IMG/VR virus record: IMGVR_UViG_3300043570_003617
Reading direction: 5' to 3' (one strand)
DNA: 64,000 nucleotides
Source of the DNA: a virus
The notes below the pieces were generated by a model that did no database searches, was not told the origin of the DNA, and was given only the letters and a program-made list of their open reading frames with translations. Positions within the stretch are counted from its first letter, which is position 1. Each line of letters opens with the position of its first letter. Shown one piece after another: positions 37,331 through 39,794 of the stretch. A program made the position numbers and the translations under genes.

Positions 37331-38065
37331 ATGGATAAGAAAAAGGTATTGATTTTTACTGGAGCAGGAGTTTCAGCTGAAAGTGGCGTTGCTACTTTTA
37401 GAACTGGTGATGATGGTCTTTGGTATAATCATAAAGTAGAAGATGTTGCCACACCTAGTGGGTGGCGTAGAGATAGGGAAAAAGTTCTTAATTTCTACAA
37501 TATGCGACGTGCTCAAATGAAAGATGTTGAGCCAAATTTAGCGCATAAAATAATTGCTGAATTAGAAAGTGATTATGATGTTACTGTTGTAACTCAGAAT
37601 GTTGATGATTTACACGAAAGATCTGGTTCAACTAATGTTATTCACTTACATGGTGAGTTAACAAAGGCTAGAGGTTGTATGTATGACCACAAAACATCAC
37701 CATTAGATACAGTTATTGATGTGGGATATAATCCAATTAATATTGGAGATAAGTGCCCAACAACTGGTTCTCAACTAAGACCTCACATTGTTTGGTTTGG
37801 TGAAGATTTGGATCCACAATTTGTTGATATGGCTACAGTTGCTGCTAAAGAATGTGATGTTTGTATTGTTGTTGGAACTTCGATGAAAGTTTCTCCTGCT
37901 AATACAATTCCATTTTTGACTAAAGAAAGTGCTAAGATTTACTATGTGGATTTATCAGACCTTGATTTCTATGTACCAGAATATAGAACTGATTTATTTC
38001 ATCATTATCAAGAATTGGCATCAACTGGTATGGAAAAAGTTAAAAATAATTTAAAAAATATTTAA
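37331..38065 (+). CDS. Sir2-family NAD-dependent deacetylase/ADP-ribosyltransferase (sirtuin)
   Basis: Core motifs GAGVSAESGVATFR, TQNVDDLHERSG, IHLHGEL, IVWFGEDL and VVGTSMKV are all present. Confidence 0.75.
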   Translation: MDKKKVLIFTGAGVSAESGVATFRTGDDGLWYNHKVEDVATPSGWRRDREKVLNFYNMRRAQMKDVEPNLAHKIIAELESDYDVTVVTQNVDDLHERSGSTNVIHLHGELTKARGCMYDHKTSPLDTVIDVGYNPINIGDKCPTTGSQLRPHIVWFGEDLDPQFVDMATVAAKECDVCIVVGTSMKVSPANTIPFLTKESAKIYYVDLSDLDFYVPEYRTDLFHHYQELASTGMEKVKNNLKNI

Positions 38066-38066
38066 T

Positions 38067-38306
38067 ATGAACGAGAAATATTACAAAGATATGTTTGGTG
38101 GTACTAAATATGGCGACTATATGGTTTATGGTTTAGATAAATCTGAATCTAAATATAGTGATTACTCAGATTTACTTAATCAAATGGGTAGTTATTATAA
38201 CGTAGCTACTTTTCAAGAAGAATCTGAAGAAGAAAAAACTATCCGTTTAGCTAAAGAAAAGGCTGAAAAAAGAAATAATAAGATTGACCAACTTTTAGGA
38301 GAATAA
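38067..38306 (+). CDS. hypothetical small protein
   Basis: 79-aa ORF starting 2 nt after the Sir2 stop. Confidence 0.45.
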   Translation: MNEKYYKDMFGGTKYGDYMVYGLDKSESKYSDYSDLLNQMGSYYNVATFQEESEEEKTIRLAKEKAEKRNNKIDQLLGE

Positions 38307-38307
38307 T

Positions 38308-38871
38308 ATGTCACAAATATCAATTGTTCATTGGATTACGGCTTTTTTAATAGTTGTTCCTTTATTTGGATTGATTATTTCAATTCCAAGTTTTGTATCT
38401 ATGTATAAACTTGGATTCAAAGCTTATGTAGAACAATTAGTGCTTTTGAAAACAATGTTGAAAAAGATATCATCTGGATATAAAATTACTCAAAATCAAG
38501 TTTATAATTACAGCGGTGTTAGTTATAATGGTCCAAAATCAGTAACACAAGTTGAAACTAATCATTTCTTTCCAATAGTTATTAATAAAGATAATTTATT
38601 AGTTCTTAATAAGAAAGAAGGCCCTTTTAATACACTTCACATTCAATATTGTAAACATATAGATGATGAATGGAATAATAATATAGTTGAGATAAAAACC
38701 TCAAATTGTTTATTTACTCAAATTCTAAATGATAGATTTCAAAAGAAAGTTGATAATCTTATGAAAGAATCTGTTCAACTTGATGGTGTTGAAAATTTGA
38801 ATCAATTATTAAATAGTGAAATAACTTCTATCAAAAGAGAAGATAAACTTAAAGCCATATTAAATGATTAA
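38308..38871 (+). CDS. membrane-anchored hypothetical protein
   Basis: N-terminal transmembrane helix WITAFLIVVPLFGLIISIPSFV. 187 aa. Confidence 0.5.
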   Translation: MSQISIVHWITAFLIVVPLFGLIISIPSFVSMYKLGFKAYVEQLVLLKTMLKKISSGYKITQNQVYNYSGVSYNGPKSVTQVETNHFFPIVINKDNLLVLNKKEGPFNTLHIQYCKHIDDEWNNNIVEIKTSNCLFTQILNDRFQKKVDNLMKESVQLDGVENLNQLLNSEITSIKREDKLKAILND

Positions 38872-39028
38872 AAGAGACATTGTAATAGTAGACCACATCA
38901 ACATGATAAGTGCTACTAAAGTTGATCCTGATATTTTAGAAAGACTTAATCTTCGTGTTAAGAATGTTCGCAAGTATAGAGGTAAAATTGAAAGACGAAA
39001 AGAAAAAATTAAAAGAATTTATGAATAA
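38864..39028 (+). CDS. hypothetical 54-aa ORF (not in supplied track), ATGATTAA overlap with upstream stop
   Basis: ATG at 38864 overlaps the TAA of 38308..38871. The ORF runs into the frame of the next ORF. Basic protein MIKRDIVIVDHINMISATKVDPDILERLNLRVKNVRKYRGKIERRKEKIKRIYE. Confidence 0.25.
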   Translation: MIKRDIVIVDHINMISATKVDPDILERLNLRVKNVRKYRGKIERRKEKIKRIYE

Positions 39029-39212
39029 TAGAGACGTTATTGATATATTTGGTCAATTACTAAATGGTAATAAAGAAATTATGATGTTGAAGGCTAGACA
39101 AACTGGTAAGTCAAGTGTTGCCTCTCATTTAATGGACTGGAAAAAACTATATGATAAACATGAAAGAGTTAGATTAAGAAAAGAAACCATAAAACGACTT
39201 TTTAATATATAA
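38964..39212 (+). CDS. short ORF with terminase-large-subunit-like Walker A segment (EIMMLKARQTGKSSVASHLM)
   Basis: Resembles the T4 gp17 region [30 protein letters not shown]. At 82 aa it is far too short for a terminase. The track start at 38955 is GTG; the first ATG is at 38964. Confidence 0.35.
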   Translation: MFASIEVKLKDEKKKLKEFMNNRDVIDIFGQLLNGNKEIMMLKARQTGKSSVASHLMDWKKLYDKHERVRLRKETIKRLFNI

Positions 39213-39236
39213 CTCAACAAAAAGAAATAAAATTTT

Positions 39237-39794
39237 ATGAATTTGCAGGAATTACTTAATAAATGGAATATCAAATGTGATGTTAATACATTACTTTCTA
39301 TGTGGAATGAATCACACAGAGCTTATCACACCTTAAATCACTTAAATGATGTTATTGACCAAATCAATGAAAGTAAATCAAAATACTCTGACAAAGAATA
39401 TGAGAAGTTAATGTTAACAGCTCTTTTTCATGATTGTGTTTATGATCCAATGAGAAGTGATAACGAAGAGAAATCTGCTGACTTCTTTATGGAATGTTGT
39501 TCAGATAAATCAAATTCAGACGTTTTAGAAGTAAGACAAATGATTTTAGATACAAAGACTCACGAAGCTACAACAAACCTTTCAGAGTCGTTTAATCACT
39601 ATGATATGAGTATTGTAGAAAGAGATTTTGACCAATTGTTGGAATGGGAAAACGGAATTCATGAAGAGTTCAAAGCTTATGGTGAAGCTTATAAAGAAGG
39701 TAGATTGAAATTTTTAGAATCTATTTTAGATAAATATCCTCACAACACAGAGAACTTACTTAAATTAGTCGAGTGGGTTAAAACTAACTACTAA
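39237..39794 (+). CDS. HD-domain phosphohydrolase-like protein
   Basis: H...HD pattern: YHTLNHL followed by ALFHDCVYDP. 185 aa. Confidence 0.45.
   Translation: MNLQELLNKWNIKCDVNTLLSMWNESHRAYHTLNHLNDVIDQINESKSKYSDKEYEKLMLTALFHDCVYDPMRSDNEEKSADFFMECCSDKSNSDVLEVRQMILDTKTHEATTNLSESFNHYDMSIVERDFDQLLEWENGIHEEFKAYGEAYKEGRLKFLESILDKYPHNTENLLKLVEWVKTNY

What the first reader, a model, noticed from the sequence alone, without database searches (positions are those of the whole stretch)
37331..39794. Sirtuin, membrane protein and HD phosphohydrolase cluster: a possible NAD+/nucleotide-signalling or counter-defence module
A complete Sir2 catalytic core (GAGVSAESG, TQNVDDLH, HG, VWFGE, GTS) is followed by two small ORFs (one membrane-anchored), a suspicious overlapping-frame region, and an HD-domain protein. 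Sir2 and HD domains are recurrent effectors in bacterial immune systems (Thoeris, DSR, and others) and in phage NAD+ salvage and counter-defence. A standalone phage sirtuin next to an HD hydrolase is not a described pairing. It could deacylate host targets or reshape NAD+/ADPR pools during infection.
Basis: inference. Interest (0 to 1): 0.65.

Follow-up and report, generated by a model that had tools for sequence, protein, structure and literature searches.

The report
Huge-phage sirtuin and HD-enzyme operon
A giant phage of Bacteroidetes-type hosts co-transcribes an intact CobB-like sirtuin and a phosphodiesterase-like HD enzyme, but comparison with hundreds of related loci ties the sirtuin to NAD+ recycling genes and the HD enzyme to coenzyme A synthesis genes, so this is probably two cofactor-metabolism genes sharing an operon, not a new paired system.

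Summary
Positions 37331-40210 carry seven tightly packed, co-directional genes that end at a strong bidirectional terminator.

- **Sirtuin.** The first gene is a catalytically intact class III (CobB/SIRT5-like) sirtuin.
- **HD enzyme.** The sixth gene is a real HD-superfamily enzyme. Its model is confident (pLDDT 98) and is closest in fold to class I cyclic-nucleotide phosphodiesterases.
- **Overlapping frames.** The "suspicious overlapping frames" are two small genes joined by 8-nt overlaps.

- **Phage sirtuins are common.** CobB-like sirtuins occur in 1022 phage records. In other phages this sirtuin's clade sits in NAD+ salvage/ADP-ribose islands (NAMPT, PRPP synthetase, NMNAT, Macro, NADAR).
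- **The HD family points to coenzyme A.** It is large and uncharacterised. Most of its longer members are fusions to phosphopantetheine adenylyltransferase (PPAT), and CoaE often lies nearby. A CoaE gene lies 5.5 kb downstream in this window.
- **The pairing is lineage-specific.** Sir2-HD adjacency is confined to this Mahaphage lineage, plus one other lineage where they lie 2.3 kb apart. It is absent from 80 bacterial loci and from more distant viral HD loci.
- **No defence signature.** None of the eight proteins scanned matches a PADLOC model meaningfully.

The finding is a new member of known kinds, of modest interest. The untested HD-PPAT/CoaE link and a C-terminal peptide motif shared by about 7% of the ORFs (likely genes) of a related complete genome are the more interesting leads.

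The parts
37245..37330 (.). Divergent intergenic region between the minus-strand 1536-aa fibre-like gene and Sir2. It is the presumed promoter region of the plus-strand unit.
   Evidence: Read directly from the sequence. One Bacteroidetes-type TAnnTTTG element starts at 37314, 17 nt before the ATG. The motif is not enriched upstream of genes in the window (4 of 55 genes against 2.5 expected), so this is only a lead.
37331..38065 (+). Class III (CobB/SIRT5-like) sirtuin, 244 aa, predicted catalytically active. The canonical four-cysteine zinc site is degenerate (only C116 and C142).
   Evidence: Pfam SIR2 2e-46. NCBIfam NAD-dependent protein deacylase models reach 207 bits, below their curated cut-offs. 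PDB: E. coli CobB 3e-44 and SIRT5 5e-37. Catalytic motifs and Y56-x-x-R59 are at least 90% conserved in 76 viral relatives, while the Cys positions are not conserved. No PADLOC hit.
38067..38306 (+). Small acidic/basic protein, 79 aa, unknown function. It ends in the shared C-terminal motif (…KRNNKIDQLLGE).
   Evidence: No credible family hit. Weakly conserved in 14 related loci. Starts 1 nt after the Sir2 stop.
38308..38871 (+). N-terminally membrane-anchored protein, 187 aa, unknown function. It ends in the shared C-terminal motif (…KREDKLKAILND).
   Evidence: One hydrophobic segment at about residues 4-33. No family hit. Found in only 9 related loci and replaced by an unrelated gene in L002.
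38864..39028 (+). Small basic protein, 54 aa. It overlaps the upstream gene by 8 nt and ends in …RRKEKIKRIYE.
   Evidence: Sequence. Called by ENA/JGI on near-identical contigs. Conserved in 6 related loci.
39021..39212 (+). Small protein, 63 aa from ATG 39021. It overlaps the upstream gene by 8 nt, contains LKARQTGKS, and ends in …RKETIKRLFNI.
   Evidence: Sequence. The ENA gene call gives 63 aa. Homologues occur in L001 and 9 other loci. The 85-aa GTG-start ORF (38955) is an ORF-calling artefact.
39237..39794 (+). Stand-alone HD-superfamily metal-dependent phosphodiesterase-like enzyme, 185 aa. It belongs to a large uncharacterised family (JGI name 'predicted metal-dependent HD superfamily phosphohydrolase') that is mostly found fused to PPAT/CoaD.
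39794..40210 (+). Clade-restricted protein of unknown function, 138 aa. Its start overlaps the HD stop codon (TAATG), so it is probably translationally coupled to HD.
   Evidence: Sequence. All 120 listed of 227 homologues are at least 71% identical and unnamed or 'hypothetical'. No family hits. The AlphaFold model is poor (pLDDT 58).
40207..40243 (.). Bidirectional intrinsic terminator that closes the plus-strand unit and the convergent minus-strand gene 40244-40954.
   Evidence: 17-bp stem with 5 G-C pairs and T runs on both strands. These are the only two terminator-like sites in 37000-41000.
45319..45990 (+). Dephospho-CoA kinase (CoaE) homologue, 223 aa, 5.5 kb downstream of HD. It lies outside the operon but bears on the HD enzyme's likely pathway.
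   Evidence: Pfam CoaE 3.5e-13, 50 bits against a cut-off of 27. Present 3-6.5 kb downstream of HD in 14 of 18 related loci. CoaE is also adjacent to or near HD in 9 of 43 more distant viral loci, and fused to HD in P0199.

Best explanation
This is a lineage-specific accessory operon of a Mahaphage-type huge phage. It co-transcribes two separate cofactor-metabolism enzymes together with five small clade-specific proteins.

1. **The sirtuin.** The sirtuin is an active class III (CobB/SIRT5-like) NAD+-dependent lysine deacylase. It would strip acetyl or acidic acyl groups from host or phage proteins, consuming NAD+ and releasing nicotinamide and O-acyl-ADP-ribose. In other phages the same sirtuin clade sits beside the enzymes that recycle those products (NAMPT, PRPP synthetase, NMNAT, Macro, NADAR). 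In this lineage those genes are scattered elsewhere in the roughly 600-kb genome.

2. **The HD protein.** The HD protein is a two-metal phosphodiesterase-like hydrolase. Its family works with the last two enzymes of coenzyme A synthesis: PPAT, usually fused to it, and CoaE, often nearby. It most likely hydrolyses a phosphodiester or phosphoanhydride bond in an adenylate- or 4'-phosphopantetheine-containing metabolite. That would feed or proof-read the PPAT/CoaE steps.

**Status of each step**
- Shown: gene anatomy, domain identity, conservation of catalytic residues, and genomic associations.
- Inferred: substrates, co-transcription, and the absence of obligate Sir2-HD coupling.
For: **Anatomy**
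- Seven co-directional genes have gaps of 1, 1, -8, -8, 24 and -1 nt.
- They are bounded by a divergent intergenic region and a bidirectional terminator.

**Sirtuin**
- Pfam, NCBIfam and PDB matches are all to CobB/SIRT5.
- The NAD-binding motifs, catalytic His107 and the Y56xxR59 acyl pocket are conserved in 76 viral relatives.
- In 80 viral loci of this sirtuin clade, the neighbours within 8 kb are Prs (19), Thg1 (15), NAMPT (14), Macro (14), NADAR (13) and NMNAT (12). HD appears only in the megaphage lineage.
- The complete relative LR745206.1 has NAMPT-like plus NMNAT/Nudix at 84.6-86.9 kb, and also Prs, NADAR and Nudix.

**HD protein**
- The HD motif is invariant.
- 53 of 66 long homologues are HD-PPAT fusions, scoring about 100 bits to TIGR01510 CoaD with an intact HxGH motif.
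- One homologue is an HD-CoaE fusion.
- HD-PPAT is followed by CoaE in L105.
- CoaE lies 5.5 kb from HD in the window and in 14 of 18 related loci.
- In 43 more distant viral HD loci, CoaE occurs in 9 and PPAT in 7. Sir2 occurs in only 4, all with HD at least 65% identical to the window's.
- HD persists without Sir2 in L014/L015 and L018.
- 0 of 80 bacterial HD-PPAT loci have a Sir2 nearby.
Against: - The two enzymes share one tightly packed transcription unit. They stay linked in 14 of 17 informative loci of the lineage while the genes between them are swapped. That is what a functional pair would look like.
- Sir2 of the same clade lies 0.6-1.5 kb upstream of a stand-alone PPAT in about six further phage groups. 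It lies 2.3 kb upstream of an HD-PPAT fusion in L105/L106. There is therefore some cross-talk between the 'NAD' and 'CoA' gene sets that this explanation treats as coincidence of accessory-gene clustering.
- No Macro homologue was found in LR745206.1. This leaves room for the HD enzyme to process the sirtuin's ADP-ribose product.
- No substrate has been tested for any member of the HD family, and no paper on it was found.
Confidence: 0.55

Rival explanations
1. Sir2 and HD form a true two-step pathway on ADP-ribose. The sirtuin makes O-acyl-ADP-ribose, or ADP-ribosylates a target. The phosphodiesterase-like HD enzyme then cleaves the ADP-ribose product. In this it would replace the Macro/NADAR enzymes that accompany this sirtuin clade in other phages, or act like the SidE phosphodiesterase domain acts on ADP-ribosylated ubiquitin.
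Confidence: 0.15
2. This is an RNA-end repair module as proposed for phage sirtuins by Iyer et al. 2022. The sirtuin would act like KptA/Tpt1, using NAD+ to remove 2'-phosphates from cleaved tRNA. The HD enzyme would open 2',3'-cyclic phosphates.
For: Iyer et al. (PMC9503650) assign most phage sirtuins to RNA-repair neighbourhoods that include phosphoesterases. Thg1-like, CYTH and tRNA-binding genes flank this sirtuin clade in other phages. An RNA-ligase-like gene lies upstream of HD in L018; that identification is by eye. From general knowledge, HD domains with 2',3'-cyclic phosphodiesterase activity are known in CCA-adding enzymes.
Against: The class III acyl-lysine pocket residues Y56 and R59 are conserved across the clade, which argues for a protein deacylase. 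None of the partners named by Iyer et al. (2H, cREC, PIN, RNA ligase, HAD) was seen in the window: 29 of its roughly 55 ORFs were scanned against Pfam, including every plus-strand ORF of 90 aa or more at 26019-51539. The HD family's PPAT/CoaE fusions have no obvious RNA-repair logic.
Confidence: 0.12
3. This is a counter-defence module. The phosphodiesterase-like HD enzyme would degrade cyclic-nucleotide or cyclic-ADP-ribose immune signals (Thoeris, CBASS, Pycsar). The sirtuin would reshape NAD+/ADP-ribose pools during infection.
For: The closest folds are cyclic-nucleotide phosphodiesterases. The aligned H-x3-H and HD motifs match those of PDEB1. The gene sits in a variable accessory island of a huge phage. 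The lineage also carries NAD+ salvage genes, which in other phages are known to counter NAD+-depleting defences (PMC13464706).
Against: The HD family is widespread as a chromosomal gene fused to PPAT in Bacteroidota, Verrucomicrobiota and other phyla, which points to housekeeping metabolism. An NAD+-consuming sirtuin would worsen, not relieve, NAD+ depletion. None of the eight cluster proteins scanned matches a PADLOC model meaningfully (two weak hits, E 0.0025-0.0037); PADLOC covers defence rather than anti-defence, so this is weak evidence. No signal-degrading activity is known for this family.
Confidence: 0.08

Closest known systems
Bacterial CobB and human SIRT5 (class III sirtuins)
   Same: Full-length match to the Sir2 core at E~1e-44 for CobB and 1e-37 for SIRT5. 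It shares the same NAD-binding motifs, the catalytic histidine, and the Tyr/Arg pair that recognises acidic acyl-lysines.
   Different: It is phage-encoded. Scores fall below every NCBIfam equivalog cut-off. The four-cysteine zinc site is reduced to two cysteines that are not conserved in the viral clade. It lacks the N-terminal extension of long CobB.
Phage-encoded Sir2/CobB-like proteins (PHROG 2162; T5, rV5-like and KVP40-like phages)
   Same: Same family (PHROG E=2e-47; 1022 phage records). It is a stand-alone protein of about 240 aa in an early/accessory gene region.
   Different: Only 31-42% identical to those of cultured phages. It belongs to an environmental clade (41-92% identity) whose usual neighbours are NAD+ salvage and ADP-ribose-processing genes. 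It does not sit in the RNA-repair neighbourhoods described by Iyer et al. 2022.
HD-PPAT (CoaD) fusion proteins of Bacteroidota, Verrucomicrobiota and phages (uncharacterised; named 'predicted metal-dependent HD superfamily phosphohydrolase' or 'pantetheine-phosphate adenylyltransferase' by JGI)
   Same: The window protein aligns over its full length with the N-terminal domain of these fusions (34-48% identity) and has the same invariant residues.
   Different: Here the HD domain stands alone. PPAT is encoded about 80-95 kb away in relatives and was not found in this window. No member has a known substrate.
Class I cyclic-nucleotide phosphodiesterases (PDE1-PDE9, trypanosomatid PDEB1)
   Different: Sequence similarity is not significant (E about 1). 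The protein is half the size of a PDE catalytic domain, so the substrate pocket that defines PDE specificity is not demonstrably present.
NadD-YqeK (adenylyltransferase plus HD-domain Ap4A hydrolase) and AcpH (HD-type acyl carrier protein phosphodiesterase). Both are analogies drawn from general knowledge.
   Different: There is no detectable sequence relationship to either family: no Pfam or NCBIfam hit. The analogy was not tested.

Membership tests
Sir2 family, class III (CobB/SIRT5-type NAD+-dependent deacylase) | Rossmann NAD+-binding motifs (GAGxS…, TQNxD, GTS) | tested here: met
   GAGVSAESG, TQNVDDLHER and GTS are present and align to CobB. They are at least 90% conserved in 76 viral relatives.
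Sir2 family, class III (CobB/SIRT5-type NAD+-dependent deacylase) | Catalytic histidine in the HG motif | tested here: met
   H107 in IHLHGE aligns with the IHMHGE motif of E. coli CobB and is conserved in the clade.
Sir2 family, class III (CobB/SIRT5-type NAD+-dependent deacylase) | Tyr-x-x-Arg pair that binds acidic acyl-lysines (SIRT5 Y102/R105) | tested here: met
   F-Y56-N-M-R59-R aligns with FYNARR of CobB. FYN.RR is at least 90% conserved in the clade. The residue roles come from general knowledge of SIRT5 and CobB.
Sir2 family, class III (CobB/SIRT5-type NAD+-dependent deacylase) | Structural zinc site formed by four cysteines | tested here: not met
   Only C116 and C142 lie in the zinc-module region. 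They are cysteine in 22 and 43 of 76 relatives respectively, and the L002 and L105 homologues have one or none.
Sir2 family, class III (CobB/SIRT5-type NAD+-dependent deacylase) | Score above a curated equivalog cut-off (NCBIfam) | tested here: not met
   The best model, NF001753, scores 207 bits against a cut-off of 243. CobB model NF040867 scores 201 against 320.
Sir2 family, class III (CobB/SIRT5-type NAD+-dependent deacylase) | NAD+-dependent deacylase activity | not testable with these tools
   Needs an enzyme assay.
Defence-associated SIR2 effectors (ThsA, DSR1/2, SIR2-HerA, SIR2-pAgo) | Match to a defence-system SIR2 profile, and fusion or adjacency to a sensor or partner (SLOG, HerA, pAgo, long C-terminal domain) | tested here: not met
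   No PADLOC hit at E<=0.01. The protein is a 244-aa single-domain sirtuin, and no such partner was found among its neighbours.
HD superfamily of metal-dependent phosphohydrolases | H…HD…D metal-binding motif | tested here: met
   H35, H65-D66 and D123, plus H31 and H109, are invariant or nearly invariant in 62 homologues.
HD superfamily of metal-dependent phosphohydrolases | All-helical HD fold | tested here: met
HD superfamily of metal-dependent phosphohydrolases | Match to Pfam HD (PF01966) | tested here: not met
   The window protein has no hit. Six of 66 longer relatives match at E<=1e-3, mostly below the gathering score. The best profile-versus-PDB hit is YedJ at E=0.23.
Class I cyclic-nucleotide phosphodiesterases | PDE catalytic-domain homology and a cyclic-nucleotide-binding pocket | tested here: inconclusive
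HD-PPAT (CoaD) fusion family | Homology to the N-terminal HD domain of the fusions | tested here: met
   phmmer E from 1e-17 to 1e-35 against many 320-367-aa proteins, with the match at their N-termini. They share the invariant residues.
HD-PPAT (CoaD) fusion family | C-terminal PPAT domain with the HxGH motif in the same polypeptide | tested here: not met
   The window protein ends after the HD domain (185 aa). tblastn with a PPAT domain finds nothing in the window. A stand-alone PPAT lies elsewhere in relatives.
Phage NAD+ reconstitution pathways (NARP1/NARP2/NARP3) | NAMPT-like plus Prs-like or NMNAT genes, or PnuC plus NadR | tested here: not met
   None is in the 64-kb window. Homologues of NAMPT (weak, E=4e-4), NMNAT/Nudix and Prs exist at distant positions in the related complete genome LR745206.1. 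The cluster itself is therefore not a NARP module.
Phage sirtuin RNA-repair neighbourhoods (Iyer et al. 2022) | Sirtuin linked to 2H, Nudix-cREC, PIN, RNA ligase, kinase, MazG or HAD genes | tested here: not met
   None of these was seen in the window, where 29 of about 55 ORFs were scanned against Pfam. The neighbourhood definition is taken from PMC9503650.

The most novel reading that the evidence does not exclude
The HD family is the missing salvage enzyme of a phage and Bacteroidota 'CoA reconstitution' route. It would be a phosphodiesterase that liberates 4'-phosphopantetheine, for example from holo-acyl carrier protein as AcpH does, or from damaged or capped CoA species. It would hand the product directly to the fused or co-encoded PPAT and then to CoaE. 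In huge phages this would be deliberately co-expressed with a CobB-type sirtuin, so that acyl-lysine removal (NAD+-dependent) and CoA regeneration jointly reset the host's acyl-CoA economy. That would make it a CoA counterpart of the NAD+ reconstitution pathways.
Probability: 0.15. Interest if true: 0.7.

Novelty: new member of a known kind. Interest (0 to 1): 0.35.

Why it matters
Taken as written (a sirtuin-HD pair acting as a signalling or counter-defence module), the finding would matter little. Phage sirtuins are common, and the pairing does not recur outside one lineage. The work did turn up three more useful points.

1. An environmental clade of phage sirtuins keeps an intact deacylase pocket and travels with NAD+ salvage and ADP-ribose-clearing genes. 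This suggests phages run a complete sirtuin cycle rather than only rebuilding NAD+.
2. A very large, uncharacterised HD family (more than 5000 sequence clusters) is fused to PPAT or lies near CoaE in both bacteria and phages. That gives a concrete, testable pathway context for an enzyme with no known substrate.
3. Huge phages of Bacteroidetes-type hosts appear to encode the last two steps of CoA synthesis.

Each point can be tested with standard enzymology.

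Tried and rejected
- **Pfam and NCBIfam on the HD protein:** no meaningful hit. Sequence and profile searches of the PDB gave nothing significant; the best was YedJ at E=0.23.
- **The search for related loci with the 62-sequence HD alignment:** failed because no stretch was conserved enough. Smaller alignments solved this.
- **afdb50 fold search:** the library was unavailable.
- **p138 (39794-40210):** the homologue search found only clade-internal 'hypothetical' or unnamed proteins. The AlphaFold model was too poor (pLDDT 58) to justify a fold search.
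- **PADLOC scan of eight cluster proteins:** only two weak chance-level hits (Cmr5 at 0.0025, PDC-S01 at 0.0037). A defence-system identity was rejected.
- **Sigma-70 promoter scan:** 31 sites against 26 expected, so uninformative in this AT-rich DNA.
- **Bacteroidetes TAnnTTTG motif upstream of genes:** 4 against 2.5 expected, not enriched. No promoter is claimed.
- **The 'Acinetobacter phage MD-2021a' HD hits:** these lie in what is plainly bacterial chromosome (rpoH, thiG, rtcB nearby) and were set aside.
- **Literature searches** for COG4339, for HD plus PPAT fusion, and for HD plus dephospho-CoA: nothing relevant was found. NARP3 is PnuC plus NadR and is unrelated.
- **Is p79 a homologue of the 121-aa protein that usually follows this sirtuin?** tblastn found no similarity.

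Full report
**What the window is.** The window is AT-rich, about 26-38% G+C across 2-kb windows and mostly near 28%. Its only substantial DNA matches among GenBank phages are two uncultured huge phages, LR745206.1 (634,780 bp) and LR756502.1 (642,428 bp). Genomes of these sizes are the 634- and 642-kb genomes of Al-Shayeb et al. 2020. That paper places them in the 'Mahaphage' clade and predicts Bacteroidetes hosts (PMC7162821). The HD protein of the window occurs with 100% identity on 17 metagenome contigs of up to 196 kb.

**Checking the observation.** On the plus strand, between a 1536-aa fibre-like gene (minus strand, 32634-37244) and a convergent minus-strand gene (40244-40954), lie seven genes:

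| Gene | Coordinates |
|---|---|
| Sir2 | 37331-38065 |
| p79 | 38067-38306 |
| TM187 | 38308-38871 |
| p54 | 38864-39028 |
| p63 | 39021-39212 |
| HD | 39237-39794 |
| p138 | 39794-40210 |

The spacings are 1, 1, -8, -8, 24 and -1 nt. A 17-bp-stem bidirectional terminator at 40207-40243 closes the unit. Independent ENA and JGI gene calls on near-identical contigs give the same seven genes, including the 54-aa and 63-aa pair. The 'suspicious overlapping frames' are therefore two ordinary small genes coupled by ATGAnTAA overlaps. The 85-aa ORF comes from starting at an upstream GTG. TM187 has a single N-terminal hydrophobic segment.

**The sirtuin.**
- Pfam SIR2 matches at E=2e-46 over the full profile.
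- The best NCBIfam models are NAD-dependent protein deacylase/CobB, but all score below their curated cut-offs.
- The closest solved structures are E. coli CobB (3e-44), Archaeoglobus Sir2-Af1 and human SIRT5 (5e-37).
- In the CobB alignment the NAD-binding motifs, the catalytic histidine (IHLHGE) and the FYNxRR segment all align. From general knowledge, that segment carries the Tyr/Arg pair of class III sirtuins.
- Across 76 distinct viral relatives these positions are at least 90% conserved.
- The two cysteines left in the zinc module are not conserved: 22 of 76 and 43 of 76.
- No PADLOC defence model matches.

This is a class III deacylase-type sirtuin, not a ThsA/DSR-type NADase. It belongs to a clade that has given up the canonical zinc site.

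**Phage sirtuins are not rare.** tblastn finds CobB-like genes in 1022 phage records, including T5-like, rV5-like and KVP40-like phages, usually annotated as Sir2. Iyer et al. 2022 surveyed viral sirtuins and proposed an RNA-repair role for most of them (PMC9503650).

**The usual company of this sirtuin clade.** I fetched 80 viral loci encoding relatives 41-92% identical and counted neighbours within 8 kb:

| Neighbour | Loci |
|---|---|
| Unknown 121-aa protein | 29 |
| PRPP synthetase-like | 19 |
| Small lipoprotein | 19 |
| Thg1-like | 15 |
| NAMPT | 14 |
| Macro | 14 |
| NADAR | 13 |
| NMNAT/Nudix | 12 |

HD appears only in the eight loci of the megaphage lineage. The pattern fits an enzyme that really turns over NAD+. 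Nicotinamide goes back through NAMPT and NMNAT, and O-acyl-ADP-ribose goes to Macro or NADAR.

In the complete relative LR745206.1 these partners exist but are dispersed:
- NAMPT-like (weak, E=4e-4) next to NMNAT/Nudix at 84.6-86.9 kb;
- Prs at 539.6 kb;
- NADAR at 205.8 kb;
- Nudix at 103.8 kb.

No Macro was detected. None of these genes is in the 64-kb window.

**The HD protein.**
- It has no Pfam or NCBIfam hit, but PHROG 19425 'phosphohydrolase' matches at 8e-18.
- JGI names identical and near-identical proteins 'predicted metal-dependent HD superfamily phosphohydrolase'.
- An exhaustive search found 5754 clusters at E<=1e-3.
- In 62 diverse homologues H31, H35, H65, D66 and D123 are invariant, and H109 nearly so.
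- The AlphaFold model is very confident (pLDDT 98.1, all-helical).
- A non-significant phmmer alignment to PDEB1 lines up Y-H-x3-H and HD.

The HD assignment is therefore supported, with a phosphodiesterase-like flavour. No solved or characterised close relative was found.

**What the HD family travels with.**
- Of 66 longer homologues, 53 carry a C-terminal cytidylyltransferase-like domain. It scores about 100 bits against TIGR01510 (pantetheine-phosphate adenylyltransferase, CoaD), close to that model's cut-off, and 43 of the 66 match the GSFxPxHxGH motif intact.
- One homologue is fused to dephospho-CoA kinase.
- The fusions are chromosomal in Bacteroidota (Cytophagales, Sphingobacteriales, Mucilaginibacter, Chitinophaga), Verrucomicrobiota, Lentisphaerota and others. 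There were 487 confirmed hits, of which 80 were examined.
- They also occur on viral contigs.
- In L105 an HD-PPAT fusion is followed two genes later by CoaE.
- The window itself encodes a CoaE homologue at 45319-45990 (Pfam 3.5e-13). It sits 3-6.5 kb downstream of HD in 14 of 18 related loci.
- Relatives carry a stand-alone PPAT about 80-95 kb away (L176; LR745206.1 402741-403181).
- In 43 more distant viral HD loci, CoaE is within 8 kb in 9 and PPAT is adjacent or fused in 7. Sir2 occurs in only 4, all with HD at least 65% identical to the window's.

The robust, multi-lineage partners of this HD family are the last two enzymes of CoA synthesis.

**Is Sir2-HD a pair?**

For:
- The two genes share one tightly packed unit.
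- In the lineage both are present in 14 of 17 informative loci, while the genes between them are gained, lost or replaced.
- Sir2 of the same clade lies 0.6-1.5 kb upstream of a stand-alone PPAT in about six phage groups. It lies 2.3 kb upstream of an HD-PPAT fusion in one more.

Against:
- In L014/L015 Sir2 is replaced by an unrelated 289-aa gene, and in L018 it is absent, while HD stays.
- None of 80 bacterial HD-PPAT loci has a Sir2 within 6 kb.
- The 735-kb and 636-kb huge phages carry HD homologues with no nearby Sir2.
- The Sir2-PPAT proximity occurs inside large islands of nucleotide and cofactor genes, where many unrelated accessory enzymes cluster.

I conclude that the adjacency reflects co-expression of accessory metabolic genes in one lineage, not a dedicated two-component system. 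I hold this at about 0.55. A real ADP-ribose-processing coupling remains the main rival.

**The other genes.**
- p79, TM187, p54, p63 and p138 have no family matches.
- p138 is restricted to the lineage and could not be modelled.
- The membrane protein is present in only about half of the related loci. It is therefore unlikely to be an essential part of any Sir2-HD function.

**Comparison with known systems and novelty.** The sirtuin is a new member of the known phage CobB-like sirtuins. The HD protein is a stand-alone member of a catalogued but uncharacterised family. The cluster fails the tests for the following:
- defence-associated SIR2 systems;
- NAD+ reconstitution modules;
- the RNA-repair neighbourhoods of Iyer et al.

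No paper describing the HD-PPAT fusion or its substrate was found in the searchable library. Absence from that library is not proof of novelty.

**Verdict.** Novelty is 'new member of a known kind', and interest is modest at 0.35. The most novel reading still open is that the HD family is a salvage phosphodiesterase feeding PPAT/CoaE, a phage 'CoA reconstitution' route co-expressed with a deacylase. I give that about 0.15 probability.

Noticed in passing
window 38067-39212 (four consecutive genes), 27005-27328, 50087-50341; LR745206.1 genome-wide (L262-L274): Many small proteins of this phage lineage end in the same C-terminal peptide, roughly (I/L)RDxK(I/L)xx(I/L)L plus 0-3 residues. Examples are …KRNNKIDQLLGE, …KREDKLKAILND, …RRKEKIKRIYE and …RKETIKRLFNI. 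In the complete relative, 66 of 938 non-overlapping ORFs end with the motif, against about 3 expected from its internal frequency, and 61 of the 66 are 200 aa or shorter. Conservative substitutions suggest selection at the protein level. It could be a targeting, packaging or oligomerisation tail.
   Followed up: partly
window 45319-45990 (+); LR745206.1 402741-403181, 312463-313080, 519386-519964; L176 6034-6483: The lineage encodes the last two steps of CoA synthesis. There is a CoaE homologue in the window (Pfam 3.5e-13), a second CoaE copy, and a stand-alone PPAT with an intact HxGH motif elsewhere in relatives.
   Followed up: partly
window 41987-43096 (-); bacterial loci L023-L102: An M16 (insulinase-type) peptidase gene lies 2 kb from HD in the window and in 16 of 18 related loci. 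M16 peptidase genes are also the commonest same-strand neighbour of chromosomal HD-PPAT fusions in bacteria (29 of 80 loci). The phage and bacterial M16 proteins are only about 20-23% identical, so this is not a recent joint transfer.
   Followed up: partly
L129, L133-L135, L138, L142, L162 and others (for example L162 5455-5820): A 121-aa protein of unknown function immediately follows the sirtuin in 29 of 80 viral loci of this sirtuin clade, making it the sirtuin's most faithful neighbour. A roughly 99-aa lipoprotein-like gene often precedes the sirtuin (19 of 80). Neither has a homologue in the window.
   Followed up: partly
L129-L182 viral loci (for example L162 5995-6435, L138 5995-6444): A stand-alone CoaD-like adenylyltransferase is a recurrent member of phage NAD+ salvage islands. 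Among 48 loci with stand-alone PPAT, it lies with Prs in 13, NMNAT in 11, NAMPT in 6 and Macro in 7. Some loci have both it and a separate NMNAT, so its role there is unclear.
   Followed up: partly
window 39021-39212 (residues about 24-32, LKARQTGKS); L001 8560-8712: The 63-aa protein and its L001 homologue share the string (L)LKARQTGKS, which looks like a P-loop/Walker A of the kind seen in terminase large subunits. This resemblance is recalled from general knowledge. The protein is far too short to be an ATPase, so it may be a gene remnant or a coincidence.
   Followed up: no
L020 9923-10894 (LR756501.1, 735-kb phage): The HD homologue of the 735-kb phage is a 323-aa protein. Its C-terminal half sits where PPAT would be but matches no NCBIfam model and has no HxGH motif that I could see by eye, so it may be a degenerate PPAT domain. 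An SmpB-like gene, identified by eye, lies just upstream.
   Followed up: no
L014 5711-6580; L018 4282-5370: In relatives that lack the sirtuin, its place is taken by an unrelated 289-aa gene (L014/L015). In L018 an RNA-ligase-like protein containing EKVHGSQ, identified by eye, lies upstream of HD.
   Followed up: no
window 26019-28869, 48101-52799: Other host-like accessory genes are nearby. They include an endonuclease/exonuclease/phosphatase-family protein, a DnaJ homologue with a zinc-finger domain, a glycosyltransferase, a 640-aa SPFH/Band 7 protein, an M28 peptidase, a DUF6915 protein and a protein with S1 RNA-binding domains.
   Followed up: no
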